Source: Rhizophagus irregularis
Taxonomy: Eukaryota
Reading direction: 5' to 3'
DNA: 64,000 nt
Assembly: GCF_026210795.1 (NCBI RefSeq)
Contig: NC_089433.1
Coordinates: forward strand, 1,798,001-1,862,000
Position numbers and translations under genes: made by a program. This document shows, piece after piece, positions 19,333 through 47,669 of this stretch. A model generated the notes under the pieces. The model worked only from the letters and a program-made list of their open reading frames with translations. It was not told the origin of the DNA and did no database searches. Within the stretch, counting starts at the first letter, position 1. Each line of letters starts with the position of its first letter.

Positions 19333-19695
19333 CACAGGTCGAAATTAGTTAAATAGGGTATCAATAGGTTATCAATAGGTTATCAATCGGCTATCAATAG
19401 GCTACCCTATTGGTAGCCTATTGAACTTGCGCCATAATCCGTCACCAATCAGGCAGGCTGATTGTTAGCCAATTAATAACCTATTGATAACCTATTAGTA
19501 TCCTATTGGTATTTTTATCAAATTGGTTATCAATAAGGTATTAATAGGTTATCAATAGGTTATCAATCAGCCTGCCCGATTGGTGACGGATTATGGCGCA
19601 AGTTCAATAGGCTACCAATAGGGTAGCCTATTGATAGCCGATTGATAACCTATTGATAACCTATTGATACCCTATTTAACTAATTTCAACCTGTG
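19333..19695. mobile_element. Fold-back MITE, CAC termini, 3-bp TSD (CACTA/CMC-like)
   Basis: AAT|CACAGGTCGAAATTAG...CTAATTTCAACCTGTG|AAT; ~130-bp near-perfect arms with TATCAATAGGT repeats; empty site visible in copy 1. Confidence 0.93.
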
Positions 19696-22600: not shown

Positions 22601-25368
22601 ACGCTCTTAAACGTTCTATTCTTGGTGGTGCTATTGATTCTCTACCATTTCAACATGTATCCAATACCCATCACCATAAGTATCCTCCTGAACTTACGAT
22701 GCTTATTGCTATCAACAAATTCTTGGATAGATTATTGTTCAAATTGACCACTTCTCGGCCTAGTCGTCCTGCTCAAATTTCACAGATGATTAATTCTTTG
22801 TCTACACAATTAATTCTTCTCAAATCTCTTTTAAAAGATTATACTATACCTTTTTATAGTACAACACCACTTCCTGCCTTTGTCAAATTTTTGCGTTCAC
22901 AAAAGATTTGGTCTCAGCTTATCTTTCCACGCAATTTCATCAACATCGTGTAGATTCCATCGAATATTATACTGCTCTTAGAGATGAACATTTCTCTACA
23001 TCTCCGGACTCCTTTATTTCTTCAGCCCTATCAGTGGAATATCGTTCTATCGTTCTTAATAGAGTTTTGGTTGTCATTGACTCCAAACCCACATTACTTA
23101 CTGATCCTTCAGATATCAAACAAGCTGCCATTAAACACTTCCAATCGGTTGTTACTCCTCCTTTGATCCAATATTCTTCTATTGACGAATTTTCTTCACG
23201 TTGGCAAAGAGCATATACTCCTCTTTCTGATATTGATTCGTCATTATATGACTCGGTTTTGTCTCCTATTCTGGAAGATGAATGGAAGAGTACTCTCAAT
23301 TCTATGCCTAATAATAAAGCCTCTGGTCCTTTCAAGATCTCTTATGAGATGCTGAAACATTTAACTGGCGGAGCTTTTAATTTGTCTCTTATTTTAGCTA
23401 ATGCCTGCCTTAACCAAGGCGATATCCCTGCTGATTGGCGTGAAGCGCTTGTTTATCCCATCCCAAAGCCTCATGAATTTGATGCTCAATTAAAGAATAC
23501 GCGACCTATCACTTTATTGGAAACTGTACGGAAATGCGTGGTTAAAGTCGTTACAACTCGACTTTCAAAAATTCTAGCTGACAACCAAGTGCTTCAAGGT
23601 GATAATTTTGCTGGATTGCCAGGCGGTTTCACTGACATTTCTATTAAGATGCTTGATGCTATTATTCATCAACGACGTTTTGACAAAACTGATGACCAAG
23701 AATTATGGATTGTTTCTCAGACATCTCTAAGGCCTTTGACTCAATTGATTTAAACATGCTTAGACTGGCTTTAATTCGTCTGCATATACCGTCTTTATTG
23801 ATCAAATTTATTATTAACCTTTTTACAAGACGTAATAATAAAATTATTACACATCATGGTGATACTTCTGGATATAGAGTTAGAATTGGTATTGACCAAG
23901 GTGAAATCATTTCTCCATTATTATGGGTTATTTACTTGGATCCTTTGCTTACTACACTTAATCGAGAAGCTTGTGATCCCTTTATTTTGAAATCTTCTGC
24001 ATTATTGGATTATTTTCCCATTGAATATGAACAACATAATCTTCCTGTTTCGCATATTACATTTATGAATGATTCTACTTTAATTGCTTCATCTAAACGA
24101 GGAATTGAAGATCGCCTTTCCATTACTGCTGAATTTTATACTTTAAATAATACACAAGCAAATTCAGCAAAATATATCCTTCTTTCTTCTGAACAATTTT
24201 CTCAAACTATAGTGTTTGATCTTTCTCCCTCTCCTCTAATTTCATGTCCTACTCTTACTTTAAAAGCGTTAGCTTTATTCACCTCTTTCCGTTTTTTAGG
24301 TGTTTGGTTCTGTCTTTCGGCTTCTTCTCGTTTTGTTCATAACCAAACCACTTCCATGGTTAAAGACATGGTCGCTCTTCTCAGTCCCAAAAAACTTTTG
24401 GCATAACATATAGCTTATCTTTATAATGTTGTCCTACTTCCGAGGCTAGAATTTCGCCTACAAACCACATTATTTGCAGAATCTACCATTAATCGCATGG
24501 TTTCTCCAATGCTTTCCCTTATTCGACAGAAGGCTGGTCTTGTTTCAGTCACTCCTCTCTCTGCGCTTTTCACTTTGTTACCATTTTCAATCCAACAAGC
24601 ATTTGGTCGATTTCTTTCATTCCATGTGGCTTCATGGCAGAAAATTTTTTCTCACCCTTCATATAAACTTTTTGCCAATTATATGATTACTTATCTCCAA
24701 GGTTTTTTGGACTGTGATGCCTGTCCTTCTACTATTGACCTGGAACTATGGTCCCATACCTTTTCCTTGCGAACACATTCTTTGTTCAATTCTTTATTAT
24801 TCTCTTCTCGTTTAAATATCACGTGGTCTTTATTGTTCCGATCTCTGAGGAAAGATTTACGTCTGGTGATTCCACTCCGGTCTATTTTACCAAAAGATTT
24901 ATTTCCTTCCATGAAAAATGTTCGGAAAAATTTCTGCACTCGTTATCTCGCCCAATTGATTACACCGTATGGCTCTCGACTTCTCTCATGGAAAAATTTA
25001 CGTTTCCTTAAACGAGTATCAAAAAAGGATCTGTACCTGCTTGGTTTAATTATTTATTTAATCTTATTGTTATTCCTAATTCTATTTCTTTGTTTGTTTT
25101 ATCACAATTTAGAATTCCTATTTCTCATACTGTAGCTTCTATTTCTTTTATAGACATTAGTCGTAATTATTGTTTAACCCTCAATGGGCTATTTCTTTCA
25201 ATCGTAATACTAACTCTTTTCTTGTTGGCCGTGTAATCACTATTTATCCTGCTCCACGTAACAAAGCTCTTATCTCGCATTGGATTGCAACTTCGGTTGA
25301 TGATTTGTTTTCTGATTTCTCAGCATGCCAAGGATGTGCTTCTGCTATCCCGCGATCCTCTACCTCTA

Positions 25369-27938
25369 CATCAGGAAGTCACGGGAAAAATGTTTATTAC
25401 ATGTACATTTTTGTAGATCATGTATATTATAATATTCATTATTTTAAATTAACATGTAATATTTAACATTAATGAGCATCATCAATGAGATTTTTATCAT
25501 GATGTGCAGCATTAAATAATGATAATTCAATATTTATCAAATTTATAATTTTTTATATTAGTGCACTAGTCAAAATAGACCATGATCTACGATTAGACAT
25601 TGGTCAAATAGTGCACTAATTAAAACGTCACGCGTTACGCATATTAAAAGTTTAAAAAAGGATCATCATCTTTTTTTAAACTTTTCATTCTCTTTCATCC
25701 TTCCCCTATCATCCTTCCTTTCCCCCCTTCCCTTCCTTTATCTTCCTTTCCTTTCCCTTTGTCCCTCCCTCCCTTTCGTCCTTCCCTTCCCCCTTTTCTC
25801 ACGCCTCTTTTTCTTGGAAGTAATGTAAGTTTCATTTCGAAACTTACATATTTTTTTTTAATTTATTTTTTTTTTAATTTAAAAAACAACTTAACATTTC
25901 TTATTGTTATTTTTTTGTAGGACGCGCACTAGGAGGACGCCAGCTTGAATACTACGAAACCGGACTTTAGGTAGTGAGAAATGGGAAAGGGGAAGAGATT
26001 TTTGTTATTTTATTTTAAGAAACGAACTAACGTTTCTTTTTGTTATTCTTTTTTTGTAGGACGTGCACTAGGAAGACGCTGGCTTGAATACTACGAAACT
26101 GGACTTTAGGTAGTGATAAATGGGAAAGGGGGGAGATTTTTGTTGTTTTTAATTTAAGAAACGAACTAATGTTTCTTTCATTATTTTTTTTTTTATAGAA
26201 CAAGGACGCCGGCTTGAATACGAAACCAGACTTTAAGGTAAAAAACTGGAAAGGGGGGATTGGAGGAAGGGGACTTGAACTAAGATTCGTAAGAATCTTG
26301 GTTTTATTTATTTTTTTTTATTATTTTAGAATAGTTACTAATAACCGTTCTTTTCTTTTTAGATTTCGGATGGACTTCCGATTTTTGGAAAAGGAGAAAC
26401 CAAGATTCGTAAGTACGTACGAATCTTGGTTTTTTATTTTTATTTTTTATTATTACGAACGGTTACTAATAACCATTTTTTTTTGTTTAGGTTCGGATGG
26501 GCTTCCGAATTCCAAAGAATGGAAGACTAAAGATTCGTAACGGTAAGTACAAATTTTTTTTTATTTTTTATTTTATGGAACGGTTTACTAACCGTTCCTT
26601 TCTTTTTTTTTATAGGTTTGGTGAGCTTCTGACGAACGGAAACCAAGATTCGTAAGAATCTTGGTATTTTTTTTTTATTTTATAGAACGGTTTACTAACC
26701 GTTCCTTTCTTTCTTTTATAGGTTCGGTGGGCTTCTGACAAACGGGGAACCAAGATTCGTACGAATCTTGGTTTTTATTTATTTTTTTTATTATTATGGA
26801 ACGGTTTACTAACCATTCCTTTTTTTATTTTTATAAGTTCGGTGTCTCAGAAGAATGGAAAAACCTAAAGATTCGTAAGTACTAGTACGAATCTTTTGGG
26901 TTTTTTTTATTTTTTTTAATATTACGAACAGTTACTAACCGTTTTTTTCTTTTATTTTTTTTTTATAGGATTGGGTGGTCTTCCGAAGAACGGAAAATAA
27001 TAAACTGAGGTTCGTAAGTATTTTACTACAAACTTTAGGATTTTTTTAATATTACGAACGGTTTATTAACCGTTCTTTCTTTCTTTTTTTTAGAGGATCA
27101 GGTGGATTTCTAAAGATCGGAAAAAGGAGAACTAAGGTTCGTAAGTATTATATTACGAACCTTAGATTTATTTTTTTTTAATGCTATGAATGGTTCTAAC
27201 CATTCTTTTTGTTTTATTTTTTAGATTTCGGGTAGGCCTCCAATCTTCGGATAAAGTGGAACCAAGATTCATGAGTACGAATCTTGGTTTGTTTATTATT
27301 TTTTTTTTTAAATATTATGGAACGGTTACTATTTACTAACCGTTCTTTTTCTTTTTTTTAGGTCTCAGGTGAATTTTCGAAGAATGAAACAAGAAGATCA
27401 AGATTTGTAAGTATATACAAATCTTAACGGAACGGATTAGTAAGTTTCGAAGTTTTACTTCAAAACTTTTTTTAAAATTTTTTTTTAAATTAATTTTTTT
27501 ATTAATTCTTTTTTTATCTTTTTATTGTTAGGTTGTACTTCTTGAACAAGTTTCGAAGAATAACTGAACTTCAAACCTTTTTTTGTAGGTCACGGAGTAT
27601 TTAGTTAATTAATATAAAGATTGTAAGTTTCGTTGCGAAGCCTACTGTCTTTTTTTCATTTTCTTTAACAGTTGTTACTTTTAATAATAGAAAAATTTAG
27701 CTAATATTATTGTTATAGTGTATTTAATAAAATAAATTCAATAATATTATAAATTTAATATGATGTTTATTATCTTTAAATAATGTACATCGTTAATAGA
27801 CATTAAAATTAGGTGATGCACATCGAATATTATGACATCGGTAGTACATTGCAGGGTCCGATGTTCAGCGTTTCTTTATAATGTACATCAAATGACCGAT
27901 GTACATTTGATAAACATTTTTCCCGTGACTTCCTGATG
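25369..27938. mobile_element. Non-autonomous TIR element A (TA TSD) carrying a micro-exon/intron array
   Basis: 29-bp perfect TIR CATCAGGAAGTCACGGGAAAAATGTTTAT; TA duplicated relative to empty site TACCTCTAAGAC in other copies; no transposase ORF. Confidence 0.93.
25690..27735 (+). ncRNA. Putative multi-exon non-coding transcription unit (about 14 micro-exons)
   Basis: CT-rich leader, then repeated donor (GTAAG/GTAG) - branch (CTAAC/CTAAT) - poly-T - YAG units; AATAAA near 27726. Confidence 0.55.
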
Positions 27939-30900
27939 TAAGACTTTACTTAAACGGTGTCCTTCTGAAGGATGTTTTTCTTATGTTCCGTTATCAAGTT
28001 TGATCTGTTATTCTACGAAACCTCATACTTATATACATGCGGATACTCGCTCAGTTTCACTTTCTGCATTGTTAGGCTATGCCAAATCTCTTTTATTATT
28101 TCATCTATTTGCTTCGGTTCGGCTACCTCCTGCGCTTACCCAAGCGTCCAGGATTTCTGATATCCAACTTCCTTCTTCGGTATCTATACTTTATATTGAT
28201 GGTTCCTTCCTTCCTCCTTCTAGTCATCTGGTATTTTCGATGGCCTATGCATAGACTGCTATAGATCCTGATGGGTTTATTTTGGAATCCCATTATAATA
28301 TCATTTCTTCCATTTTTCCATCTCCTTTACGTTCAGAAGTATTTGCTTTATTGCATGGATTGGACTCCCTCCCTCGGAATTCAAAAATTACTGTCGCCAC
28401 TGATTGTGCCCAATTACTTTCTTTATGGTCTTTATATGTGAATGCTCCTTTTATTCCCAGAATGCTTAAAGAATCCAACCACCTTTTGTGGTCTTCTATA
28501 CGCACTATTATGTGGCAAAAGAATCTGGATGTTTCCTTGATTAAGGTTCATGCTCACGCTGACAACCCTTTGAATAATCATGTGGATGTATTAGCCAAAG
28601 CTGCTCATACCGACTCGCATCTTTCTTCTCATCCATCATTGAAATTGCTAGCTTCTTGCATTTTACAATTTAATTTCTTACCTGTGGATATGAATATCCG
28701 GAAATTTATTAGAGATATTTTTGATGCTAAATGTCTTTTAACTCTTGCTGTATTACCAAGATTTAATTCCTCTTCTTCGATTTCTGATATCGATTGGGCT
28801 TGCACCAAATTTTGTCTCAATAACAATAAGCAATTTGTCTCTCATCAGAATGGCCGTTCTGAGTTTTGTAGTTTCCGTATCAAACTAATATTAGATATGC
28901 TTCTGACGCTTACAACTCTTCAGAGACAAAAGCCTCATCTTTACAATCCGAGTTGGCTTTGTCCTCAATGTAACTTTTCTCCTGAGACTTTAAACCACTT
29001 GTGGACTTGTCCTTATATTTTACCAGAATTTAGTCCTTTAAAAACTTTTAAAACACTACTATTGGCTCTTCGGACTACTTATCTTGATAACTTTCTTTCC
29101 GCGTCATCTTTTATCCCTTTACCGGACACTTTTGCTGCTGAATTTATGGCTCTTAATTGTTGGGATTGTGACCCTCCTTCAATTTCCTACTTACTGCTCG
29201 CAAGAGGACTTATACCGATATCTCTTACAGAATTTCTTGGAATCTATTTCTCTTCACCTACCATATGGTCTATCTTAGATACACCTTTGCATGACTTTCA
29301 TTTTGACCTTTATGTTCAAATCTGGTTGTGCCGGTCTATTTTCTTTCATCATTGGGAATCAGCTCAAGGCATTACTAATAAAATGAAATCGTTAGCTCTT
29401 GGGCCTTCTTCTATTTCTCGCTCTTCCTCTAACATTCCTCCTGATTCTTTGACACCTTCCTTGGCGACAGTTTCCTCAGATTCCTGGGTTTCCTGGGTTT
29501 CCTCTTCTATAATCCGTGAGGGATCTTGGATTTCACATTTGGATTTTTGGCGCCGTTTAACAGTTCAGCCTCTACTTAGGATTTCTTCTTGGTAACAGAT
29601 TGGATTTTAGGATATGCTGGATAGTTGACTCACACTGGCCTTCGGGTAAAGATGGGGTATGCGTTTCTGTAATAGTTTAGTTTTTCTTTACTTAATTTTA
29701 TTTTGTTTAGATTTCTTTACTTGTATGAATCGTGAAGCTAGTTCTTTTTATTTTTTGTTTAATTTTCTATATTTTGTAATATTGTTCGATTTGATTATTG
29801 TACTTTTCGTTTAATAATTATAATAAAAGATAAAGTTAAAAGACTGTTTGCTCATAATCACCAAATAAGAGGATCATCGCAACTCTTTCCTGAATTTTTG
29901 AAAATACTAATAAAAATTTATTTTTGAAATTTTCGTTTGAAAATTTCTAAGTGCTCGTTCAAAATACTAATATTTCCACAGTTGCTTTCCTCTTTACTGA
30001 GCTTTATACTATGACTACACCTCCAGCTCCTTCTGTTATTAACCCGAATATTCCGCCGCCACCGCGTCCTGTTGTTTCTACTCCCTCTGGAGACCGACCT
30101 TTATCTCCCACTAGTACCGCTGGCGCATCTAACAAACGTTCACGCGTTGTCTCTGATGACGCTATGAATGTTGATATAACTTCACCTTCTGCTTCGGCTT
30201 CCAACCTTATTTTTACCGCTCCCTCAGGCCTTCCTGTCAACAAAGTCCAAGTGATTACCTCTTTTCGTAATACTACTACTTCTGTTGAAACTATTGACGC
30301 TTCTATCCATGCTCCCTCTAACATTAATGGTAAAGGCAAAGCTGTTGCCTTCGATATGCCAGAGCGCTGACCCTCTCCCGATGGTAATGCGGCTGCTATC
30401 AAATCCGCACCTTCTCACTACCATGCTGCGGCCTATCTACGCGACGCGCCTGACACGTTCAAAGCTAAATTTACCACCAATCGCTCCATATGTGACGAAG
30501 TGGATTGTTCACTCTCCCGATATCCTTCTTATGGCGCCCGTGCACATTGCGATAGATCAGGCGATAACAAAAAGATCCTTGTCTTCTTCAATGATCAGCA
30601 TGATTTTACCGATTGTGTCAGCTCCCCGCATGCAGATCTTCTCAATTTAGCCTTTGTTCATTATTCCCCTGCAGATGCCAAACTCAATGATGAAGCAAAG
30701 TCTTTGTTTGTTACTGACATCCCACTCTTCCTGAATGAGATGCAAGTCCGCCAGGCATTTTCCTGATATGGAACTGTGATTAAATGCAAACTCACCCCTA
30801 AGAAACATTACTACAATGGTCATATCCAGTTTTCTTCTGTGGATGCAATTGCCCAATTTGATGATATTTGGGCGATCATTTGCCTTGGTAATTCCTTACG

Positions 30901-33649
30901 TGTCTGCCCGGCATCTTTTTCAAAATGCCAACATGACAGCCGTAGAGAATATGTTGCTATTCTTGCCAGCATTCCAAAAAATATTAAAGAAGCCGACCTT
31001 TTTGAAATTGCTAATCAAGTTAATGCTAAAGCCCTTAACGTCCCACTATCTATTAACTCTTACAAGCCTAAACCCTACGCATACTTGAATTTTTCTTCAT
31101 TTGACACTCTAGAAGCTGTAAAAGAAATGACCGTAGCTTTCCATGGCAAAGGGTTGATATGGCACCCTCCCAATGAAGCACATACTTTATGCCATGTTTG
31201 TGGGCGTTCTGGTTGTTCACCTTCTGTTTGTAGTCCTTGTCCTACACGAAAAGTGGATGATCACCTTAACAAATTATATTCACGCTTCAATGCTGGTTCT
31301 TGACGTGGTCATCAGAATTCACGCCAACCGCGTGATAAATCCAATTCCCGTTCACGATCGCGATCTAATTCCAGATTTCGCAATCCATCTTCTTCATTCC
31401 GATCTAATAACAGTAATAACCGTACTAATAATACTCGTCCTGATACTTCTCGTAGTAACAACTGAACCAACAGCAATAATAATAATAACATTCCCAATAA
31501 CAATGGTTATTCTTCCGGTTCTATTCAACCTCCACCTGAGCCTCGTCCTAATAATTCTACTACACATATCTCTTCTTCTGACAATTCTGCTTATACACTT
31601 CTTCAACATATCATTGATGAGTTAAAGGCGCAGATTAAAGAGATTGCTACTACCCTCAAATCTCTTGATGAAACGGTCTCCTGGATGCAGGATACTATCA
31701 CGAATCATGATTATAGAATTTCTGAGCTCGAATCAATGATGAATTATGATAGCGGTAATCCTGGTGACTCAGATTTGTACCCACCTCATGATGATCAAGA
31801 AACTCATTCCTATAATAATGGATGGGATGATGCCCCAACCCAGGACACGAATTCAGGATTCAACCTTCTTCCTCATACTGCACCCTCTCTTATTGATACT
31901 TCTCCTGATGCTTCTTTTTCTACTTTGGATCCTAACTCTGTCTTATCACGACGACATGTCCCCTTACTTAACTCTCGACCTACTATTATTGCCCCTGATG
32001 CTAATGCTTTCCGTCTGCAATTGGAAATTTCTAATGTTACTAATACCCAAAAGAATCTTTCTGCCCAACTTGGTTCGATTATGAATAAGTTGGACTCCTT
32101 CTCCCCCTCAAAACCTTCCCCTTCTAATGATTGAACACCAACTTGATTTGGGTGATTTACAGGGACTTCACCCCCCTGACAGTGTGTTACCTGATAGTCT
32201 TAATAGCAAGATCCCTTCCTTTTCTCCTTCCCCTCTTATTAATTTTGGACAAATCAATGTTAATGGTTTATGTTCCCCTGTTAGACAATTGCACTTGTTA
32301 AATTATTTCTTGCATTCCTCATTTGGTGTTTTATCTCTAAATGATACTCGTCTTACTTCATCTAGTGCTAAATTTATTTATCAAAATGATCATTCCCAGT
32401 ATAATTTTAAGTCCTATTGGGCTCCTTTCCCTTCTAATTCATGACATCATGATGGTGTTGGTCTTTTACTTCGCCATCCTTTACATAAACATGTTCAGAA
32501 AATTGATCCCTGGAAAGGTCGTCTTTTAAAATTAGATCTTTTTTTCCATCAAACTAAAATTTCTATTATTTCAGTTTATATTCCTCCTTATCATTCTATT
32601 CATTATAAAGAACGTGATGCTATTTTTGCTCAACTTAATTTATGGCTTGATAAAGCCCGCTCTAATAACTATCACGTAGTCATCCTTGGTGATTTTAATG
32701 CAGATGAATTTTCACATTCACATCTTCCTCAACATCATTTAAAAATTTTACGATTACTTTCTTCTCGATATTTTACGGATCATTAATCCCATATTTCCTC
32801 AACTTCAGGTCCTAGTCCTACCTTTTATCATCAGAATGGTTCTTCACGACTTGATTATATTTGGTCATCCCCTGGATTTCCTGCTCCTGGTCTTTTCTCT
32901 CAAGTTGAAACTTGTCCTAAGCTGAACGATAATCAATTTACTGATCACTGTGTACTTATAACGGCCTTTGATTTTAGTTCTTGTTTCGCTACTTTAGCTA
33001 AAGCTAGATTAAAGCAGAAAAGCGAACAACGCACCATTTTTCTCTACAAGAATTTAAAAGAAGATATTTGAAAAACATTTTCCAATGAAGTAAACTCACG
33101 TCTTGAGTTGTATTTGACCACACACCATCCCTCTATATCTTTACTTTCAGCTCTTCCTTTGGACAAACTTTGGCACGCTCTTAAACGTTCTATTCTTGGT
33201 GGTGCCATTGACTCTCTACCATTTCAACATGTATCCAATACTCACCATCATAAATATTCTCCTGAGCTTACTAAGCTTATTGCTATCAACAAATTTTTGG
33301 ATAGATTATTGTTTAAATTGACCACATCTAGGCCTACACTGGTCAAAATCAATTCTATCGGGTACATATCGGGTACCTATATATCGGTGGCTAATCGGAT
33401 AAGTATCGGGTATTTTTACATATCGGGTACCCGATAGCTAAGCTATTAGTCACTGATATTGTATATCGGGCATTGATCTATCTTACACATATCAGGTACC
33501 CGATATGTAAATTTTAATACGTAAGATTTTTATTTTGTACAACGTACTGTATTATATATAATCCGTTTCAACTAAAATTTTTTATTTAAATTCATTTTTT
33601 AGATAATTTTTATAAATAATTTTCTAAGAAATTTTAAAAGTCCATTTGA

Positions 33650-36600
33650 ATAATATTTAATAGGGATTTTATTTAAGAAACTTTTAGATAGATTTTTTTG
33701 AGAAATTTTTTAAGAGTCCGTTTGGAAAAATTATTTTTTTAACTAAGAGGATCATTTAGAGCATTTTTGATAGAGAATTTTCTAAAGATTTGTTTGGAGA
33801 GATTATTTTTGAGAATTTTTTAACTAAAGGGACCGTTTGGAACATTTTTTGATAGAGAATTTTCTAAGAATTCGTTTGGGAAATGGTTTTTTGAGAATTT
33901 TTTAACTAAAAGGATCATTTGGGCATTTTTTGATTGAGAATTTTCTAAGAGTTCGTTTAGGGAAATTATTTTTTGAATTTTTTAATTAAGGGGATCGTTT
34001 AGGGCATTTTTTGATTGAGAATTTTCTAAGAGTTCGTTTAAAGAGATTATTTTTGAGAATTTTTTAACCAAAGGGACCGTTGGAACATTTTTTGATAGAG
34101 AATTTTTTTGATAGAGAATTTTCTAAGAGTTTGTTTGGAAAAATTATTTTTTGAGAATTTTTTAACTGAAGGTATCATTTGATAGAGAAATTTCTAGGAG
34201 TTCGTTTAGGAAAATTATTTTTTGTATTTTTTAATTAAGGGGATCGCTTAGGACATTTTTGATAGAGAATTTTCTAATGATTTGTTTGGAGAGATTGTTT
34301 TTGAGAATTTTTTAATTAAAGGGAACGTTTGGAACATTTTTGATAGAGAATTTTCTAAGAATTTGTTTGGGAAATGGTTTTTCAAAAATTTTTTAACTAA
34401 AAGGATCATTTAGGGCATTTTTTGATTGAGAATTTTCTAAGAGTTCGTTCAGGGAAATTATTTTTTGAATTTTTTAATTAAGGGGATTGTTTAGGGCATT
34501 TTTTGATTGAGAATTTTCTAAGAGTTCGTTTAGGGAAATTATTTTTTGAATTTTTTAATTAAGGGGATCGTTTAGGGCATTTTTTGATTGAGAATTTTCT
34601 AAGAGTTCGTTTAGGGAAATTATTTTTTGAATTTTTTAATTAAGGGGATCGTTTAGGGCATTTTTTAATAGAGAATTTTCTAAGAGTTCGTTTAGGGAAA
34701 TTATTTTTTGTATTTTTTAATTAAGGGGATCGTTTAGGGCATTTTTTGATAGAGAATTTTCTAATGATTCGTTTGGAGAGATTATTTTTGAGAATTTTTT
34801 AACCAAAGGAACCGTTGGAACATTTTTTGATAGAGAATTTTCTAAGAATTTGTTTGGGAAATGGTTTTTTGAGAATTTTTTAACTAAAAGGATCATTTAG
34901 GGCATTTTTGATTGAGAATTTTCTAAGAGTTCGTTTAGGGAAATTATTTTTTGTATTTTTTAATTAAGGGGATCGCTTAGGGCATTTTTGATAGAGAATT
35001 TTCTAATGATTCGTTTGGAGAGATTGTTTTTGAGAATTTTTTAACTAAAGGGAACGTTTGGAACATTTTTGATAGAGAATTTTCTAAGAATTTGTTTGGG
35101 AAATGGTTTTTCGAGAATTTTTTAACCTAAAGGATCATTTAGGGCATTTTTGATTGAGAATTTTCTAAGAGTTCGTTTAGGGAAATTATTTTTTGTATTT
35201 TTTAATTAAGGGGATCGCTTAGGGCATTTTTGATAGAGAATTTTCTAATGATTCGTTTGGAGAGATTGTTTTTGAGAATTTTTTAACTAAAGGGAACGTT
35301 TGGAACATTTTTGATAGAGAATTTTCTAAGAATTTGTTTGGGAAATGGTTTTTCGAGAATTTTTTAACCTAAAGGATCATTTAGGGCATTTTTGATTGAG
35401 AATTTTCTAAGAGTTCGTTTAGGGAAATTATTTTTTGTATTTTTTAATTAAGGGGATCGCTTAGGGCATTTTTGATAGAGAATTTTCTAATGATTCGTTT
35501 GGAGAGATTGTTTTTGAGAATTTTTTAACTAAAGGGAACATTTGGAACATTTTTGATAGAGAATTTTCTAAGAATTTGTTTGGGAAATGGTTTTTTGAGA
35601 ATTTTTTAACTAAAAGGATCATTTAGGGCATTTTTGATAGAGAATTTTCTAAGAGTTCGTTTGGGGAAATTATTTTTTGTATTTTTTAATTAAGGGGATC
35701 GCTTAGGGCATTTTTGATAGAGAATTTTCTAATGATTCGTTTGGAGAGATTGTTTTTGAGAATTTTTTAACTAAAGGGAACGTTTGGAACATTTTTGATA
35801 GAGAGTTTTCTAAGAATTTGTTTGGGAAATGGTTTTTTGAGAATTTTTTAACTAAAAGGATCATTTAGGGCATTTTTGATTGAGAATTTTCTAAGAGTTC
35901 GTTTAGGGAAATTATTTTTTGTATTTTTTAATTAAGGGGATCGCTTAGGGCATTTTTGATAGAGAATTTTCTAATGATTCGTTTGGAGAGATTGTTTTTG
36001 AGAATTTTTTAACTAAAGGGAACGTTTGGAACATTTTTGATAGAGAATTTTCTAAGAATTTGTTTGGGAAATGGTTTTTCGAGAATTTTTTAACTAAAAG
36101 GATCATTTAGGGCATTTTTGATAGAGAATTTTCTAAGAGTTCGTTTGGGGAAATTATTTTTTGAATTTTTTAATTAAGGGGATCGTTTAGGGCATTTTTT
36201 GATAGAGAATTTTCTAAGGATTCGTTTGAAGAGATTATTTTTGAGAATTTTTTTAACTAAAGGGAACGTTTGGAACATTTTTGATAGAGAATTTTCTAAG
36301 AGTTCGTTTGGGAAATGGTTTTTCGAGAATTTTTTAATTAAAAGAATCATTTAGGGCATTTTTTGATAGAGAATTTTCTAAGAGTGTGTTTAGGGAAATT
36401 ATTTTTTGAATTTTTTAATTAAGGGGATCGTTTAGGGCATTTTTTGATAAAGAATTTTCTAATGATTCGTTTGGAGAGATTATTTTTGAGAATTTTTTAA
36501 GCCAAAGGGATCGTTTGGAACGTTTTTGATAGAGAATTTTCTAAGAGTTCATTTGGAAATGGTTTTTCAAGAATTTTTTAACTAAAAGGATCGTTTAGGG

Positions 36601-37230
36601 CATTTTTTGATAGAGAATTTTCTAAGAGTTCGTTTGGAAAAATTATTTTTTGAGAATTTTTTAACTAAAGGGATCATTTGGGACATTTTTGATAGAGAAA
36701 ATTCTAGGAGTTTATTTGGGGAAAGTATTTTTTGAGAATTTTTTAACTGAAGGTATCGTTTGATAGAGAAATTTCCAAGAGTTCGTATAGGGAAATTATT
36801 TTTTGAATTTTTTAATTAAGGGGATCGTTTAGGGTATTTTTTGATAGAGAATTTTCTAAGAGTTTGGGGAAATTATTTTTTGAGAATTTTTTAACTGAAG
36901 TATCGTTTGATAGAGAAATTTCTAAGAGTTCGTTTAGGGAAATTATTTTTTAAATTTTTTAATTAAGGAGATCGTTTAGGGCAATTTTTGATAGAGAATT
37001 TTCTAAGAGTTTGTTTGGAAAAATTATTTTTTAAATTTTTTAATTAAGAGGATCGCTTAGGGCATTTTTGATAGAGAATTTTCTAAAGATTCGTTTGGAG
37101 AGATTATTTTTGAGAATTTTTTAACTATTTGGAACATTTTTTGATAGAGAATTTTCTAAGAGTTTGTTTGAAAAATTATTTTTTGAGAATTTTTTAACTG
37201 AAGGTATCATTTGATAGAGAAATTTCTAAG
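33650..37230. repeat. Satellite array, ~81-bp monomer (two ~40-bp halves) with 242-bp higher-order repeat
   Basis: GAGTTCG anchor at 34441, 34522, ~34603 (81 bp) and at 34927, 35169, 35411, 35653, 35895, 36137 (242 bp). Confidence 0.92.
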
Positions 37231-37695
37231 ATAATATAGTTATTGAGTATGATATATACTTCCGATGGTGTATAGTAATAAAATTCTAAAAACCGTTCAT
37301 TGTATATTATAATCCAAGTACTTACAATTCATATCTTTTTCGTTTATATAATTATCATTCGGTAAATCATCTTTGATGTTTTGTCCCTATAATAATATTG
37401 AGAAAAGTTAATTTATCATTAATTTCGTCATAATAAGAGAAGTATAGTGTAAAAAAACTATACTGTATAGATAAAAGGGGTACTGTATAAAATAAAAACT
37501 ATACTGTATAAAATAAAAAACTATACTGTATAGATAAAAAATTATACTGTATGGATAAATATAGATTTTTATCAACTATACTATACAACATCGGAGGATT
37601 CGGAGGTATATTTCATACTCAATATCGTTTAACCAGAAATGGATGCTATCGGGTATTCAGTATATCGGTATATTTGATTGGCCGATCTACACATC

Positions 37696-39160
37696 TTTTT
37701 TGTAGATTCCGGGTAAGTGTCTCGAAAAATTTTGTTTTTTATGTAAGAACGTTCATTAACGTTCTTTTACTGCTTTTTTTTTTGTAGATTTCGGCCGGAA
37801 CTTGGAAATGGAGACCGGTGAGTATTTTTAAAAGGAGGAAGCAAGTTTTTTTTTTGGTTTTTCATATGTAAGAACGTTTATTAACGTTCTTTTACTTTTT
37901 CCTTTTTGTAGATTTCGGCCTGCGAACTTGAAATTAGGATCAGTAAGAGGGAAAGCAGGAGATTTTTTTATGTAAGAACGTTTATTAATGTTCTTTACTT
38001 CTTTTTTTTGTAGATTTTAGCCTGCAATTCGGATATGGGGACCGGTGGGTATTTGAGAAGGAGGAGGTTTTTTTTTTTTATGTAAGAACGTTTATTAACG
38101 TTCTTTTATTTTTTTTGTAGATTTTGGCCTGGAACTCAGAAATAGAGACCGGTGGTGAGTATTTTTAAAGGGAAGAAGCGGATTTTTAAATTTTTCTTTA
38201 TGTAAGAACGTATATTAACGTTCTTTTATTTTTATTTTTTTTGTAGATTTCGGCCCGGAACTCAGAAATGGAGACCGGTGAGTATTTTTAAAAAGGGAAG
38301 TGGGGGTTTTTTATTTTATTTATGTAAGAACGTTTATTAACGTTCTTTTATTTCTATTTTTTTTGTAGATTTCGGCCTGGAACTCAGAAATGGAGACCGG
38401 TGAGTATTTTTAAAAAGGGAAGTGGGGGGTTTTTTATTTTATTTATGTAAGAACGTTTATTAACGTTCTTTTATTTCTATTTTTTTGTAGATTTCGGCCC
38501 AGAACTCAGAAATGGAGACCGGTGAGTATTTGGAAAAGTAGGGGTTTTTTTTGTTTTCTTTATGCAAGAACGTTTATTAACGTTCCTTTACTTCTTTTAT
38601 TGTAGATTTTAGCCCGGAACTTGAAAATGGAGACCGGTGAGTATTTCTAAATGTTTTTTTATATTTATTCATGTAAGAACGTTTATTAACGTTCTTTTAC
38701 TACCTTTTTTTTGTAGATTTTAGCCCAGAACTCGGAAATGGTGACCAGTGGTGAGTATTTTTAAAGGGAGGAAGCGGATTTTTTTAATTTTTCTTTGTGT
38801 AAGAACGTTTATTAACGTTCCTTTACTTCTTTTTTTTTGTAGATTTTAGCCCAGAACTTGGAAATGGAGACCGGTGAGTATTTCTAAAAGAGGAAGTTAT
38901 TTTTTTATATTTCTTCATGTAAGGACGTTAATAATGTTCCCTTTCTTTTTTTTATCATTTTTATTAGGGACATGGATTCTTGGATAATAATACAAACTGT
39001 AAGTTGAGTGGATGAAGGAGATTCTAAATAATTGTGATATTATGAAAAATCAGTGATTTAACTTGTTGACTGGTATATGTATGATAGGCTACCGATAGGT
39101 ACCCGATATATGACTAATTGGTATATTTAAGTAGGGTTTTGTATTATTTAAAGTAATAAA
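37696..39160 (+). ncRNA. Putative micro-exon/intron array (about 11 units of ~120 bp)
   Basis: Unit: TTTTGTAG|~31-nt exon ATTTCGGCCCGGAACTCAGAAATGGAGACCG|GTGAGT...AAGAACGTTTATTAACGTTCTT...poly-T; AATAAA at ~39155. Confidence 0.6.
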
Positions 39161-42100
39161 GAGTTTAACTTGCAGTGTAATTCTAGTATAAATAGTATAA
39201 ATGCATTTTATTAATTATAATAATCCGGATTGATATGTTGGGGTTAAAATCCATGGCCCAATCAGAATTTGTTGTTGTAATCAGGCGATTGATCACATGA
39301 TTTCAGTATTTATATTTCGCACTTTGTTTATTTTTTTTTTCCTTTCGTAAAAACCTTTCTCTTAAACTTTTTATTTAAAACAAACTCTTTACTTAGTTAT
39401 TATGAAATAATATTATTATTATATTTTTTTATTTATTTTTATATTAGAAATAAACATAAAGGTATATTTTTATTATGCTCGTTTTTTCTTTTATATATAC
39501 ATTTTCTATTGACGTTCTAATACTTTTTTTCTTTTCTCTCACTAATGTTTTCTACCACTTATTAACATTTTCTATTAATATTAAATACTACTAACATGTT
39601 TTTATTAACATTCTCGTATTAATATTTTCTATTTTACTAACTTTTCTTTCTTCCTACTAACATTTTTACTAATATTTTCTATATTTACCACTAACGTTTT
39701 TATTAATATTTCTATTTTTATTTCTCTTATTAATTAATATACTTACTAATATTTTCACTAATATTTCTTTTAAATGTTAAACAGATAATTTTATTATCAT
39801 TGTTACTTTTAGTAGAACTTTACATATTACATAGTATAATTATTTATTTTTAATGTTCAACTTTATTTGATTTTACGTATGTAGTAGATAGAGTAAGATT
39901 TGTATTATTGTTTAAATTTTAATAAAGTTGAATTTCATTTTATCTGAATTAAAATAAAAAAAAGAGATATATGTCTATTGGTTTTATATGAAATTTATAG
40001 CTACTAACTGATGTATTACAAATATTTTACTACCCGATATATGTGTGTTAAATATATGATATTTATAATATATATCACTGATATTTGACTACCCGATATG
40101 TATAAGATATATACATGATGTTTACAAGATATGTCACCGATATTTGACTACCCGATATGTATAAGATATATACATGATGTTTACAAGATATGTCACCGAT
40201 ATTTAACTACCCGATATGTGTAAGATGTATACATGATGTTTACAGTATATGTCACCGATTTTCTACATTTCTACTACACATATCGGGTACCTGATATGTG
40301 TGGTATTGTTAAATATCATACACATATATCACATATATTATACACATATCAGGTACCTGATATGTACCCGATAGTATTGATTTTGACCAGTGCTAGTCGT
40401 CCTGCTCAAATTTCACAACTGATTAATTATCCATCTACCCAATTAATCCTTCTTAAATCTCTTTTAACAGATTATACTATACCTTCTTATAGTACAACAC
40501 CACTTCCTAATTTTGTCAAATTCTTGCGTTCACAAAAAGCTTTGGTCTCAGCTTATCTTTTCACGCAATTTCATCAACATTGTGTAGATTCCATTGAATA
40601 TTATACTGCTCTTAGAGATGAACATTTCTCTACATCTCCGGGCTCCTTTATTTCTTCAGCCCTTTCAGTGGAACATCGTTCTATCGTTCTTGATAGAGTC
40701 TTGGTTGTTATTGACTCTAAACCCACTTTACTTACTGATCCTTCAGATATCAAACAAGCTGCTATTAAACACTTCCAATCGGTTGTTACTCCTCCTTTGG
40801 TCCAGTATTCTTCTATAGATTCATTTCCTCCACGATAGCAAAGAGCATATACCCCTCTTTCCGATATTGATTCGTCATTATATAACTCGGTCATGTCTCC
40901 TATTTTGGAAGATGAATAGAAGAATATTCTCAATTCTATGCCTAATAACAAAGCCTCTGGTCCTTCCAAAATTTCTTATGAGATGCTCAAACATTTAACT
41001 GGCGAAGCTTTCAATTTATCCCTTATTTTAGCTAATGCCTGCCTCATTCATGGAGATATTCCTGCTGATTGGTGTGAAGCGCTTGTTTATCCCATTCCAA
41101 AGCCTCATGAATTTGACGCACAATTAAAGAATACGCGACCTATCACTTTATTGGAAACTGTACGAAAATGTGTGGTTAAGATCATTACAACTCGTCTTTC
41201 AAAAATCCTAGCTGACAACCAAGTGCTCCAAGGTGGTAATTTTGCTGGATTGCCAGGCGGTTCCACTGACATTCCTATTAAGATGCTTGATGCTATTCTT
41301 CATCAACGCCGCTTTGACAAAACTGATGACCAAGATTTATGGATTGTTTCTCAAAACATTTCTAAGGCCTTTGACTCAATTGATTTAAACATGCTTAGAC
41401 TGGCTTTAATTCGTCTGCATATTCCGTCTTTATTGATCAAATTTATTATTAACCATTTTACAAGACGTAATAATAAAATTATTACCCATTATGGTGATAC
41501 TTCTGGATATAGAGTTAGAATTGGTATTGACCAAGATGAAATCATTTCTCCATTATTATGGGTTATTTACTTGGATCCTTTGCTTACTACACTTAATCGA
41601 GAAGCTTGTGATCCCTTTATTTTGAAATCTTCTGCATTATTGTATTATTCTCCAATTGAATATGAACAACACAATCTTCCTGTTTCGCATATTACATTTA
41701 TGGATGATTCTACTTTAATTGCTTCATCTAAACGAGGAATTGAAGATCGCCTTTCCATTACTGCTGAATTTTATACTTTAAATAATACTCAAGCCAATTC
41801 AGCAAAATATATTCTTCTTTCTTCTGAACAATTTTCTCAAACTATTATGTTTGATCTTTCTCCATCCCCTCTAATTACATCTCATACCCTTACTTTAAAG
41901 GCATTAGCCTTATCTACATCTTTTCGATTTTTAGGTGTTTGGTTTAATCTTTTGGCTTCTTCTCATTTTGTTCACAACCAAACTGTTTCCATGGTCAAAA
42001 ATATGGCTGTTTTACTTAGTCTTAAAAAACTTTTGGCACAACATGTGGCCTATCTTTATAATATTGTTTTACTTTCGAGGCTAGAATTTCGCCTACAATC

Positions 42101-44940
42101 CACATTATTTGCTGAATCCACCATTAATCGCATGGTTTCTCCAATGCTTTCTCTTATTCGTCAGAAGGCTGGTTTGGCCTCAGTCACTCCTCTCTCTGCG
42201 CTTTTCACACTGTTGCCGTTCTCTATCCAACAAGTGTTTGGTCGATTTCTATTATTTCATGTGACTTCATGGCAGAAAATTTTTTCTCACCCTTCATATA
42301 AACTTTTTGCCAATTATATGATTACCTATCTCCAAGGATTTTTGGATTGTGATGCCTGTCCTTCTACTATTGATTTGGAACCATGGTCCCATACCTTTTC
42401 CCTATGAACACATTCTTTGTTTAATTCTTTATTGTTCTCTTCTCGATTGAATATCACATGGTCTTTATTATTTCGACCTCTGAGGAAAGATTTACGACCG
42501 GTGATTCCACTCTGGTCTATTTTACCAAAAGATTTATTTACTTCCATGAAAAATGTTCGGAAAAATTTCTGCACTTGTTTTCTTGCTCAACTGATTACAC
42601 CATGTGGCTCTCGACTTCTCTCATGGAAAGATTTACGCTTTCTTAAACGAGTATCGAACAAAGGATCTGTGCCTGCTTGGTTTAATTGTTTATTCAATCT
42701 TATTGTTATTCCTAATTTACTTTCTTTTTTTATTTTACAACAATTTAGAATTCCTAGTTCTCATACTGTAGCTTCTATTTCCTTTATAGATATTAGTCGA
42801 AATTATTGGTTTAACCCTCAATGGGCTATTTCTTTCAATCGTAATACTAATTCTTTTCTTGTTGGCCGTGTGATTACTACCTATCCTGCTCCACGTAATG
42901 AAGCTCTCATCTCACATTGGATTGCGATTTCAGTTGATGATTTGCTTTCTGAATTTACAGCATGTCAAGGATGTGCCTCTGCTATTTCGCGATCCTCTAC
43001 CTCTAAGACTCTACTTAAACGATGTCCTTCTGAAGGATGTTTTTCTTATGTTCCGTTATCAAGTTTGATCCGTTGTCCTACGAAACCTCGTACTTATATA
43101 CATGCGGATACTCGTTCGGTCTCACTCTCTGCCTCATTAGGCTATGCCAAATCTCTTTTATTATTTCATCTTTTTGCTCCGGGTCGATTGCCTTCTATGA
43201 ATAACCATGTGTCTAGGATCTCGGATATCCAACTTCCTTCTTCGGTGTCTACACTTTATATTGATGGCTCCTTCCTTCCTTCTTCTAGTCATCTGATATC
43301 TTCGATGGCTTATGCATGGACTGCTATAGATCCCGATGAATTTATTTTGGAATCCCATTATAATATCATTTCTTTTATCTTTTCTTCTGCTTTACGTTCA
43401 GAAGTGTTTGCTTTATTGCATGGATTGAACTCCCTCCCTTGGAATTCTAAGATTACTGTCACCACTGATTGTGCTCAATTACTTTCTTTATGGTCTTTAT
43501 ATGTGGATGCTCCTTTTATTCCCAGAATGCTTAAAGAATCCAACCACCTTTTGTGGTCCTCCATACGCACTATTATGTTGCAAAAGAATCTGGATGTTAC
43601 CTTGATCAAGATTCCTGCTCATGCTGACGACCCTTTGAATAATCATATGGATGCATTAGCTAAAGCCGCTCATACTGACTCACATCTTTCTTCTTGTCTA
43701 CCATCGGAATTGATGGCTCCTTGCATTTTACAATTTAATTTTTTACCTGTGGATATGAATATCCAGAAATTTATTAGAGATATTTTTGACGCTAAAAGTC
43801 TTTTAACTCTTGCTGTATTACCAAGATTTAATTCCTATTCTTCAACTTCTGATATTGATTGGGCTTGCACCAAATTTTGTCTTAATAACAATAAGCAATT
43901 TGCCTCTCATCGGAATGGACGTTCCGAGTTTTGTGGTTTCCGTATCAAATTACTTTTAGATATGCTTCCAACGCTTACAACTCTTCAGAGACGAAAGCCT
44001 CATCTTTATAATTCCAGTTGGCTTTGTCCTCAATGTAACTCTTTTCCTGAGACTTTAGACCACTTGTGGACTTGTCCTTATATCTTACCAGAATTTAGCC
44101 CTTTAAATACTTTTAAAACACTTCTATTGGCTCTCTGGACTAATTATCTTGACAAATTCCTTTCCGCGTCATCTTTAATACCTTTACTGGACTCTTTTGC
44201 TGCTGAATTTATGGCTCTTGATTGTTGGAATTGTGACCCTCCTTCATTTTCTTGCCTGAGACTCACACGAGGACTTATACCGATATTCCTTACAGAATTT
44301 CTTGGAAATTATTTTTCTTCACTTACCATATGGTCTATCTTAGATACACCTTTGCACGACTTTCATTTTGACCTTTATGTCCAAATCTGGTTGTGCTGTT
44401 CCATTTTCTTTCATCATTGGGAATTAGCTCAAGGCATTATAAAAAAAATGAAATTGTCAGCTCTTGGGCCTTCATCTATTCTTTGTCCTTCCTCTAACAT
44501 TCCTCTTGACTCTTCGACACCTTCCTTGGCGACAGCTTCCTTGGATTCCTGGGTTTCTTGGGTTTCCTCTTCTATAATCCGTGGGGGATCTTGGATTTCA
44601 CATTTGGATTTTTAGCGCCGCTTAACAGTTCAGCCTCTACTTAGGATTTCTTTTTGGTAACGGATTAGATCTTAGGACATGCTGGATAGTTGACTCACAC
44701 TGGCCTTCGGGTAAAGATGGGGTATGCGTTTCTGTAATAGTTTAGTTTTTCTTTACTTAATTTTATTTAGTTTAGATTTCTTTACTTGTATAAATCGTGA
44801 AGCTAGTTCTTTTTATTTTTATGTTTATTTTCTATATTTGATATTTGTAATATTGTTCGATTTGTTTATTGTACTTTTCGTTTAAAAATTAATAATAAAA
44901 GATAAAGTCATAAGACTGTTTGCTCATAATCACCAAATAA

Positions 44941-45822
44941 TAGCGTGAAGGCACAGGGATTAGTGTAGTTGGACTGCATCATGGTGAATTAGTGTGTACA
45001 GTTAGGCCGCACATTTCAACTAAGGGTCATGGTGTCCTTCTAACGTTCTCTGAAGAGCCACTTGGCATGTGCCTGGGGCCCCGTCTTTCGAGGTCACTAC
45101 TATACCTTGGAGGGGACTTCCTGTCCGGGTGGTCACTCTACGATACCACTTGGGGTCAGTAATGGCTAGATGGTCGTCCTAGATGGTAAAGCTGAGGGTG
45201 CAATGTCTTAGTGGTAGTTTGACCTTCTGTTAGGTCTTAGACCAACCACAGTGTTCGTGCACAGAACAGATAGCTTGGTGATTGGGTTCGATTCCCTTCT
45301 CTGATGGGCCCTGGTTGGTGATTCCTGGTGGTTGATACCCACCATAAGGGATGATCCTGGGTAACACCTACAAGCTTACTGTCCAGGTGGTCGCTACAAA
45401 GTATACCACTTGGGGATTACAACTGTACTATCGGTGGTGGGTAATCGCGGGCTGTAGTGGCCTTTGAGTGAGACCTGGTACCTAATATGGTAGTATGGAA
45501 GGGGTCCAGATGTTTGAAGGTTATTTGACGAAAGTCCTCCGTGACAGTAGTAGTGGTGAGGGGTTTATAATAGTAGCCATTACAGTATCATGCAGTGGAT
45601 TAAAGGACGAGTAGGGTGGTGTTTAGCAGATTCGAAGGCCTTTGGGTCCCTGGAATATGTCCTTGCGTTTCGGTTGTGATGTTGAATTGTCCCTGTTAAA
45701 AAGGTGGCAGGAATGGTTACATCATGGCTTAGTGAGGATGATGCAATGAACGACCTACCTCCATAGCCTTCAATAGAGGGTGCGAAAAGTAGTGGCCACT
45801 AAACTTACAAAACACTTGTAAA
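44941..45822 (+). mobile_element. 882-bp GC-rich non-coding SINE-like element inserted at the LINE target
   Basis: Flanked by the 15-mer on both sides; no ORF, no visible similarity to the LINE; A-box-like TAGTGTAGTTGG 44961-44972, B-box GGTTCGATTCC 45285-45295; no TTTT on + strand. Confidence 0.75.
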
Positions 45823-45837
45823 ATAATCACCAAATAA

Positions 45838-47669
45838 GATTCTCTCATGGAAAGATTTACGTTTCCTTAAACGAGTATCGAACAAAGGACCTGTGCCTGC
45901 TTGGTTTAATTATTTATTTAATCTTATTGTTATTCCTAATTCTCCTTATTTATTTGTTTTATCACAATTTAAAATTCCTATTTCTCATACTGTAGTTTCT
46001 ATTTCTTTTATAGACATTAGTCGAAATTATTGGTTTAACCCTCAATGGGCTATTTCTTTTAATCGTAATACTAACTCCTTCCTTGTTGGCCGTGTGATTA
46101 CTACCTATTCTGCTCCACGTAATGAAGCTCTTATTTCACATTGATGATTTGCTTTCTGATTTTACTGCATGCCAAGGTTGTGCCTCTGCTATTCCGCGAT
46201 CCTCTACCTCTAAGACTTTGATTAAATGATGTCCTTCTGAAGGATGCTTTTCTTATATTCCGTTATCTAGTTTGATCCGTTATCCTACGAAACCTCATAC
46301 TTATATACATGTGGATACTTGCTCGGTTTCACTTTCTGCCTCGTTAGGCTTTGCCAAATCTCTTTTATTATTTCATCTTTTTGCTCCAGTTCGATTACCT
46401 CCTATGAATAATTAAGTGCCTAGGATTTCTGATATCTGACTTCCTTCTTCAGTGTCTACGCTCTATATTGATGGTTCCTTCCTTCCTCCTTCTAGTCATC
46501 CGGTATCTTCGATGGCTTATGCATAGACTGCTATAGACCCTGATGGATTTATTTTGGAATCTCATTATAATAGTATTTCTTCCATTTTTCCTTCTGCTTT
46601 ACGTTCAGAAGCTTTTGCTTTATTACATGGATTGGACTCCCTCCCTTGGAATTCAAAGATTACTGTCGCCACTGATTGTGCCCAACTACTTTCTTTATGG
46701 TCTTTGTATGTGGATGTTCCTTTTATTCCCAGATTGCTTAAAGAATTCAACCACCTTTTGTGGTCCTCCATACGAACTATTATGTCACAAAAGAATCTGG
46801 ATGTTTCCTTGATTAAAGTTCCTGCTCACGCTAACGATCCTTTGAATAATCATGTGGATGCATTAGCCAAAGCCGCTCATATTGACTCACATCTCTCTTC
46901 TCATCCGTTTTCGGAATTGTTGGCTTCTTGCATTTTACATTTTAATTCTTTACCTGTGGATATGAATATCCAGAAATTTATTAGAGATATTTTTGACGTG
47001 AAAAGTCTTTTAACTTTTGCTATATTACCAAGATTTAATTCCTATTCTTCAACTTCTGGTATCGATTGGGCATGCACCAAATTTTGCCTTAATAACAATA
47101 AGCAATTTGTCTCCCATCGGAATGGCCGTTCCGAGTTTTGTAGCTTCCGTATCAAATTATTATTAGATATGCTTCCAACGCTTACAACTCTCCAGAAACG
47201 AAAGCCTCATCTTTATAATCCGAGTTGGCTTTGTCCTCAATGTAACTCTTCTTCTGAGACTTTAGACCACTTGTGGACTTGTCCTTATATCTTACCAGAA
47301 TTTAGCCCTCTAAATACTTTTAAAGCACTACTATTAGCTCTCCGGACTACTTGTCTTGATAAATTTCTTTCTGAGCCATCTCTACTACTTTTACCAGATT
47401 CCTTCGCTGCTGATTTTAAAGCTATTGATTATTGGGATTGTGATCCTTCTTCAATTTCCTGTCTGCGACTTACACGAGGACTTATACCAATATCTCTTAC
47501 AAAATTTCTTGGAAATTATTTTTCAACATTTACCATATGGTCTATTTTAGATACTGACGAATTCAATTTTTTCATAATGCCTTGAGCTGATTCCCAATGA
47601 TGAAAGAAAATGGAACAGCACAACCAGATTTGTACATAAAGGCCAAAATGAAAGTCATGTAAAGGTGTA
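45838..47669 (+). mobile_element. LINE copy 4, 5'-truncated, last ~115 bp inverted, 3' end missing
   Basis: Begins directly after the 15-mer at a position equivalent to ~16607 of copy 1; forward to 47554; 47554-47669 is the reverse complement of the next LINE segment. Confidence 0.9.

What the first reader, a model, noticed from the sequence alone, without database searches (positions are those of the whole stretch)
44941..45822. 882-bp structured non-coding passenger using the LINE's target: candidate site-specific SINE
Seen: exact 15-mer at both ends; roughly half G+C in an AT-rich window; no ORF. Pol III-like A box (44961) and B box (45285), and not one TTTT on the + strand though A-runs occur. 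Possible long-range pairing (ACAGGGA 44953 / TCCCTGT 45690). A terminal hairpin TTACAA-AACAC-TTGTAA sits just before the target, where the LINE has AGTC-ANAA-GACT. No shared 3' sequence with the LINE. Known: SINEs borrow LINE enzymes, usually through a shared tail. Inference: an unusually long Pol III RNA mobilised in trans by structure or target pairing, or a captured cellular ncRNA.
Basis: partly seen in the sequence, partly recalled or inferred. Interest (0 to 1): 0.87.

Follow-up and report, generated by a model that had tools for sequence, protein, structure and literature searches.

The report
Site-specific fungal SINE inside a transposon
In a root-symbiotic Rhizophagus fungus, this 882-base stretch is a shortened copy of a roughly 1-kb non-coding repeat with a tRNA-like start. 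It sits, like a neighbouring retrotransposon, at one fixed 14-base site near the end of a small DNA transposon, likely because it borrows that retrotransposon's enzymes, an arrangement already described in crocodilians.

Summary
The insert is real. It is a copy of a multi-copy SINE-like family in Rhizophagus irregularis-type DNA, missing about 127 nt at its 5' end.

The flanking repeat is a 14-bp target duplication, not 15. The empty site lies 54 bp inside the end of a ~940-bp TA-flanked MITE. In public contigs, 7 different 5'-truncated copies follow LINE tail plus 14-mer. Five of 6 loose-end rows at the 3' end pass through the 14-mer; three 5' junctions lack it.

The true head, absent here, has an A/B-box pair (0 of 10,000 shuffles). 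The body holds a ~255-nt duplication. There is no poly(A) and no tail shared with the LINE.

The closest precedent is crocodilian SINEU-3/Tx1-Mar in a Mariner element (PMC4494074). This scan already noted a like system elsewhere in this genome (e1-10422192). New variant of a known kind.

The parts
44941..45822 (+). 5'-truncated copy of a ~1.0-kb SINE-like family (about 127 nt of head missing)
   Evidence: 464 of 525 columns identical to L001, which runs 127 nt further 5'
44926..44939 (+). 14-bp target duplication, upstream copy; A44940 is a junction base that also fits the element
45823..45836 (+). 14-bp target duplication, downstream copy
44960..45180 (+). internal repeat unit 1, begins with an A-box match at 44961, no B-box match
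   Evidence: unit 1 vs unit 2 score 72, 0 of 300 shuffles
45208..45455 (+). internal repeat unit 2, A-box-like match 45209 and exact B box 45285-45295
   Evidence: pair in 4 of 10,000 shuffles
45381..45500 (+). two predicted local hairpins, lowest local fold z (-3.2)
45659..45740 (+). predicted long local hairpin (window z -2.4)
45805..45821 (+). small terminal hairpin, 6 bp here, 5 bp in copies with T45805G
10014..10910 (+). target MITE, left part up to and including the first 14-mer (10897-10910); starts TA|CAGTCAACTC; its last 40 bp are missing from the window
10911..18916 (+). LINE copy 1, ~8.0 kb, RRM ORF1 and RT-RNase H ORF2, broken into several ORFs
18931..29853 (+). LINE copy 2 (APE domain seen here), with two inserts
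29868..44925 (+). LINE copy 3, split by a ~7-kb insert; its 3' end abuts the upstream 14-mer
45838..47554 (+). 5'-truncated LINE piece after the downstream 14-mer, ending in an inverted 116-bp piece

Best explanation
The stretch is a 5'-truncated copy of a ~1-kb, multi-copy, non-coding repeat with an A/B-box head that sits at a fixed 14-bp site 54 bp inside the end of a TA-flanked MITE, and it is likely a Pol III SINE copied by target-primed reverse transcription with the enzymes of the APE-RT-RNase H LINE that stacks at the same site. Inferred steps: full-length copies are transcribed by Pol III from the head boxes. The LINE endonuclease nicks at the left edge of ATAATCACCAAATA. The RT copies the SINE RNA from its 3' end, often stopping early. 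A second cut 14-17 bp away duplicates the site, so each insertion re-creates a target and mixed LINE/SINE arrays grow. The SINE has no poly(A), no LINE-like tail and no T5 run, so its RNA would read through into the downstream target copy. Pairing of that copy with the nicked DNA is my preferred but untested way for the RT to engage it (about 0.35).
For: SHOWN. (1) Family: 5304, 3222, 219 and 1072 contig records laid from four runs on the element plus short LINE flanks. (2) Truncation series: 7 of 15 joint rows shown (2 more not shown) join LINE tail + 14-mer to 7 different internal starts (45016, 45112, 45154, 45510, 45526, 45586, 45666). One row joins the 3' end + 14-mer to 45617 in 3 of 4 runs. 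(3) 3' end: 5 of 6 'behind' loose-end rows pass through the 14-mer or a one-mismatch form. They continue into the MITE (X7), a LINE 5' end (X4, X12), a full-length head (X1), or a two-contig mixed consensus (X1). In X7 one contig of depth 862 spans 45767-45836 plus 8 MITE bases, with no drop from the upstream contigs (774 + 23). (4) Empty target: L001 156-801 matches window 10914-10271 at 94% and carries one 14-mer, 54 bp from an end that mirrors window 10012 (score 43, 0 of 300 shuffles). (5) Head: A box L001 817 and exact B box 873, 0 of 10,000 shuffles. Its 5' end also appears after a 14-mer variant in X1. (6) Similar divergence: LINE copies 85-93%, SINE copies 88%. (7) The first T5 lies 67 nt past the target start in the empty site and 41 nt past it when a LINE follows; none inside the element.
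Against: Three 5' junctions lack the 14-mer: L001, at another place of the same MITE in the other orientation, and two short copies at 45763 and 45782. One 3' row leaves at 45810 into unrelated DNA. Short-read contigs probably under-report unique flanks, and most loose-end rows were not shown (24 shown, 365 not), so specificity is not quantified. Joint sides are only 25-29 nt. Neither ARAGORN (relaxed) nor Rfam calls the head a tRNA, and the full head was read in one contig. Transcription was not shown. More distant LINE subfamilies exist in this species (about 50-84% identity) and could be the partner.
Confidence: 0.78

Rival explanations
1. The SINE is real and target-specific but is mobilised by a different LINE family that uses the same site and may share its 3' tail.
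For: No tail similarity to this LINE. Many related RT families at about 50-84% identity exist in the species. In crocodilians different Tx1-Mar families are inferred to serve different SINEU families (PMC4494074 section 16).
Against: All LINE pieces seen next to the element belong to this family, and divergence levels are similar.
Confidence: 0.12
2. The element inserted once or a few times and was amplified passively inside the MITE or by array duplication.
For: It lies in a repeated DNA element, and one tandem joint (45836 to 45617) recurs in 3 of 4 runs.
Against: Seven different truncation points behind the same site, and several different neighbours after the 3' 14-mer, need independent insertions.
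Confidence: 0.04
3. It is the UTR, LTR or non-coding end of another autonomous element, or a retrocopy of a single cellular ncRNA.
For: About 1 kb is long for a SINE (recalled), and the head is not called as a tRNA.
Against: The 5' end is bounded by a 14-mer variant in X1 and by MITE DNA in L001. There is no ORF and no Rfam match near a gathering score. It has two A/B-box pairs and copies diverged by about 12%.
Confidence: 0.06

Closest known systems
Crocodilian SINEU-3 with Tx1-Mar LINEs in Mariner-N4_AMi (Kojima 2015, PMC4494074; passages and sections 14 and 16 read)
   Same: A SINE and a LINE share a site in a non-autonomous DNA transposon. The duplication is ~16 bp, tandem SINEs sandwich a duplication, 5'-truncated copies prove independent insertion, the partner is inferred from the shared target, and there is a second unlike site in the same transposon.
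   Different: Here: a fungus, a tRNA-like A/B-box head rather than a U1/U2 head, about 1 kb with an internal duplication, no poly(A) (all SINEU have one), a LINE with RNase H and RRM whose clade was not determined, and a target near the terminal repeat.
Xenopus Tx1L in Tx1D (as cited in PMC4494074, passage)
   Same: An APE-type LINE specific for a site in a non-autonomous DNA transposon.
   Different: The target there is a piggyBac element, and the passage names no SINE passenger.
Fungal tRNA SINEs Mg-SINE (partner MgL/MGR583) and SINE2-1_BG (partner Tad1-24_BG) (table passage in PMC3747384)
   Same: Fungal SINEs with tRNA-derived heads.
   Different: They are listed for sharing a 3' end with the partner LINE. 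This one shares none, and the passage gives no fixed target for them.
SINE and L1-Tx1 families in the curated R. irregularis TE library (PMC11075540; passages and 2 supplement rows seen)
   Same: Same species; SINE and L1-Tx1 families are listed, and SINEs among expressed orders.
   Different: No structure, head or target preference in what I saw.

Membership tests
SINE (tRNA-derived, SINE2) | non-autonomous, no coding capacity | tested here: met
   longest stop-free stretch 72 aa
SINE (tRNA-derived, SINE2) | multi-copy, independently inserted | tested here: met
SINE (tRNA-derived, SINE2) | TPRT marks: target duplication, 5' truncations, fixed 3' end | tested here: met
   14-bp duplication and 7 truncation points
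SINE (tRNA-derived, SINE2) | internal Pol III promoter (A and B box) in the 5' head | tested here: met
   L001 817/873, 0 of 10,000 shuffles; box consensus recalled; head absent from the window copy
SINE (tRNA-derived, SINE2) | head derived from an identifiable tRNA | tested here: inconclusive
   head not called by relaxed ARAGORN or Rfam; relaxed ARAGORN calls only unit 2 of L001
SINE (tRNA-derived, SINE2) | transcribed by Pol III | not testable with these tools
SINE (tRNA-derived, SINE2) | 3' tail shared with partner LINE, or poly(A) (usual; exceptions noted in PMC4494074) | tested here: not met
Target-specific SINE/LINE pair, works like SINEU-3/Tx1-Mar | more than 20% of flanks are one repeat type (criterion in PMC4494074) | tested here: met
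   5 of 6 3' loose-end rows carry the 14-mer; small, possibly biased sample
SINEU | U1/U2 snRNA head and poly(A) tail | tested here: not met
   no snRNA match in Rfam for the head; no poly(A)
Tx1 clade (partner LINE) | RT phylogeny inside Tx1 | not tested
   no reference set; PDB hits to R2 and L1 are similarly weak
Tc1/mariner-pogo MITE (target) | TA duplication and terminal inverted repeats | tested here: inconclusive
   TA|CAGTCAACTC at both ends, but the ends come from two different copies; superfamily label recalled; no transposase linked
Retrozyme / hammerhead element | hammerhead core | tested here: not met
   no ribozyme family in Rfam scans; core pattern absent from L001

The most novel reading that the evidence does not exclude
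A fungal LINE and a 1-kb Pol III SINE with no poly(A) and no common tail are both primed through a read-through copy of their own 14-bp target. The target duplication itself is then the shared 'tail', and any RNA that once lands at this MITE site becomes a substrate for site-specific re-insertion.
Probability: 0.3. Interest if true: 0.7.

Novelty: new variant of a known kind. Interest (0 to 1): 0.42.

Why it matters
It extends the target-specific SINE/LINE-in-a-DNA-transposon arrangement from crocodilians to an arbuscular mycorrhizal fungus, with a different head and no poly(A). It helps explain part of the unclassified repeats of R. irregularis. If the RT accepts an unrelated 1-kb RNA through target read-through, this is a compact test case for how LINE enzymes choose RNAs in trans, which bears on site-specific gene insertion tools. 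The architecture itself has a published precedent, and this scan noted a like system elsewhere in the same genome.

Tried and rejected
No whole genome is held, so copy number and flanks could not be counted directly.

Rfam gave only sub-threshold matches on the window stretch, L001 and the head. Default ARAGORN found 0 genes in the window. Relaxed ARAGORN gave one call in L001 unit 2 and 22 implausible calls in the window copy; not used as support.

DNA pattern scans: 1 hit in metagenomes (L001), 0 in three viral scans, 0 in the first genome scan. The second genome scan gave L003, a chance match in a bacterial gene, discarded. L002 (29% over 68 aa) was not used.

RNA: one search lists 6 runs on record as RNA that hold 27-41% of the words (one flagged as probably DNA).

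A third repeat unit in the 3' part is not significant (78 of 300, 124 of 300 and 179 of 500 shuffles). Head versus unit 1 is borderline (17 of 300). The two-sequence consensus fold has 1 compensated pair of 151.

A script offset error was redone. Summed contig depth was not used as copy number. Earlier-finding look-ups by sequence returned nothing.

Full report
CONTEXT. RT homologues at 92-98% identity are named Rhizophagus irregularis, so the window is R. irregularis-type DNA. From 10911 to 47554 it holds a head-to-tail array of one LINE family: three long copies and one truncated piece, 85-93% identical. Pfam finds RRM, APE, RT and RNase H domains, and a C-terminal Cys/His motif is visible. 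The clade was not determined. The 15-mer occurs exactly five times, always at element borders.

OBSERVATION. Length, G+C, lack of ORF, boxes, lack of TTTT and the terminal hairpin are as described. The whole stretch folds no better than shuffles (z -0.4). The proposed 44953/45690 helix has pair probability 0 and such matches arise in 64% of shuffles. There is no similarity to the LINE.

IT IS A FAMILY. 20 of 24 listed runs from 15 studies hold part of the stretch. Four runs laid on it gave 219 to 5304 contig records each, LINE flanks included. The window copy differs from most contigs at many places and from L001 at 61 of 525 columns, clustered in patches. In X7 the 3'-end contig has depth 862 while the lowest contigs have 22-35. 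This suggests tens of copies, but the tool warns that depth is not a copy number.

THE TRUE 5' END. Loose ends before 44939 in three of four runs (X1, X7, X11) agree with L001, a metagenome contig that runs 127 nt further 5'. The extension begins GGGCTGATCACC and has an A box at 817 and an exact B box at 873. No shuffle of 10,000 gives such a pair (box consensus recalled). A near-identical start follows a 14-mer variant in run X1, which bounds the element at about 1.0 kb. ARAGORN and Rfam do not call the head a tRNA, so tRNA origin is inferred from the boxes. The window copy lacks this head but keeps the second A/B pair of unit 2.

THE TARGET. L001 also holds the empty site. Its 156-801 matches window 10914-10271 at 94% and carries one ATAATCACCAAATA followed by T, 54 bp from an end that mirrors the window's TA|CAGTCAACTC at 10012. 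The target is therefore near the end of a ~940-bp TA-flanked MITE; the Tc1/mariner-pogo label is recalled. The duplication is 14 bp. Contigs that continue with TGG suggest up to 17 bp, though part of that overlaps the LINE start. The MITE's last 40 bp are absent from the window.

SITE PREFERENCE, FOR. Seven of 15 joint rows shown link LINE tail + 14-mer to seven different internal starts, and a SINE-SINE joint through the 14-mer recurs in 3 of 4 runs. At the 3' end 5 of 6 loose-end rows pass through the 14-mer or a one-mismatch form. In X7 the single 3'-end contig runs on into the MITE without loss of depth.

SITE PREFERENCE, AGAINST. L001's copy starts at another place of the same MITE, in the other orientation, with no 14-mer at its 5' side. 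Two short copies have unrelated 5' flanks, and one contig leaves at 45810. Joint sides are 25-29 nt, 365 loose-end rows were not shown, and contig graphs probably hide unique flanks. Strong preference is shown; exclusivity is not.

STRUCTURE. Two of 20 sliding windows fold better than shuffles (z -3.2 and -2.4). I scored 26 of the 40 difference rows shown. I dropped 14 low-depth rows at 45050-45089, and 46 more rows were not shown. In seven of eight settings 10-12 differences kept a predicted pair against 4-7 expected (P for kept minus broken from below 0.0001 to 0.07). The eighth setting had too few pairs (P 0.33). The number broken was below chance in only two settings. All changes are one-sided. 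Local hairpins are modestly supported; a conserved global fold is not.

MECHANISM. Shown: shared site, duplication, truncation series, fixed 3' end, head boxes. Inferred from non-LTR biology: Pol III transcription and TPRT in trans by the co-resident LINE, with each insertion re-creating the site. Neither element ends in poly(A). The SINE has no T5 run, and the first one lies 41-67 nt past the target start. That fungal Pol III needs five or more T is recalled; one search did not confirm it. A transcript would thus carry the target at its 3' end. PMC4494074 notes that co-transcription with the target can strengthen specific integration (passage). I put target pairing at about 0.35, and recognition of a terminal hairpin lower, since the LINE's hairpin is at chance level.

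COMPARISON. It works like SINEU-3 with Tx1-Mar in Mariner-N4_AMi (PMC4494074; passages and sections 14 and 16) but is not a SINEU: different head, no poly(A). The fungal SINEs tabulated in PMC3747384 (passage) share tails with their LINEs. SINE and L1-Tx1 families are listed for this species in PMC11075540 (passages, two supplement rows), and SINEs are named for AM fungi in PMC11952901 (passages), without targets in what I saw. The library sequences, which I could not see, may contain this family. Nine paper searches showed no fungal target-specific SINE in the listings; the library is incomplete. I found the crocodilian paper before reading earlier notes. Those notes report a 17-bp-target LINE/SINE array and CACTA-end LINE arrays in this genome; I could not check whether the first is the same family.

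VERDICT. A real, target-preferring, tRNA-like SINE. New variant of a known kind, interest 0.42.

Noticed in passing
window 19332-19696: 365-bp foldback element with 176-nt arms (93% complementary) inserted in LINE copy 2.
   Followed up: no
window 33337-40392: ~7-kb insert splitting LINE copy 3, with 47-bp inverted ends and a long 81-bp tandem array.
   Followed up: no
window 25368-27939: ~2.6-kb insert in LINE copy 2 with 42-bp inverted ends and internal repeats related to 62074-62413.
   Followed up: no
window 47554-47669: The last LINE piece ends in a 116-bp inverted segment; the LINE 3' end and the MITE's right end are missing.
   Followed up: partly
window 55232-55990: ORF with a weak Pfam ADPRTs_Tse2 match, 24 bits, below the 26.6 cut-off.
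   Followed up: no
window 14104-18651: The RT catalytic motif reads FMDD, and RNase H lies before the C-terminal Cys/His motif.
   Followed up: no
window 45046-45090, 45296-45310, 45360-45392 vs L001: Differences from L001 are clustered in patches with 100-nt identical runs between (0 of 5000 random placements). In the window copy the two units share TTCTCTGA at the patches, which hints at conversion between units or a separate subfamily.
   Followed up: partly
window 7224-8140: Element with 183-bp inverted ends at 84% identity.
   Followed up: no
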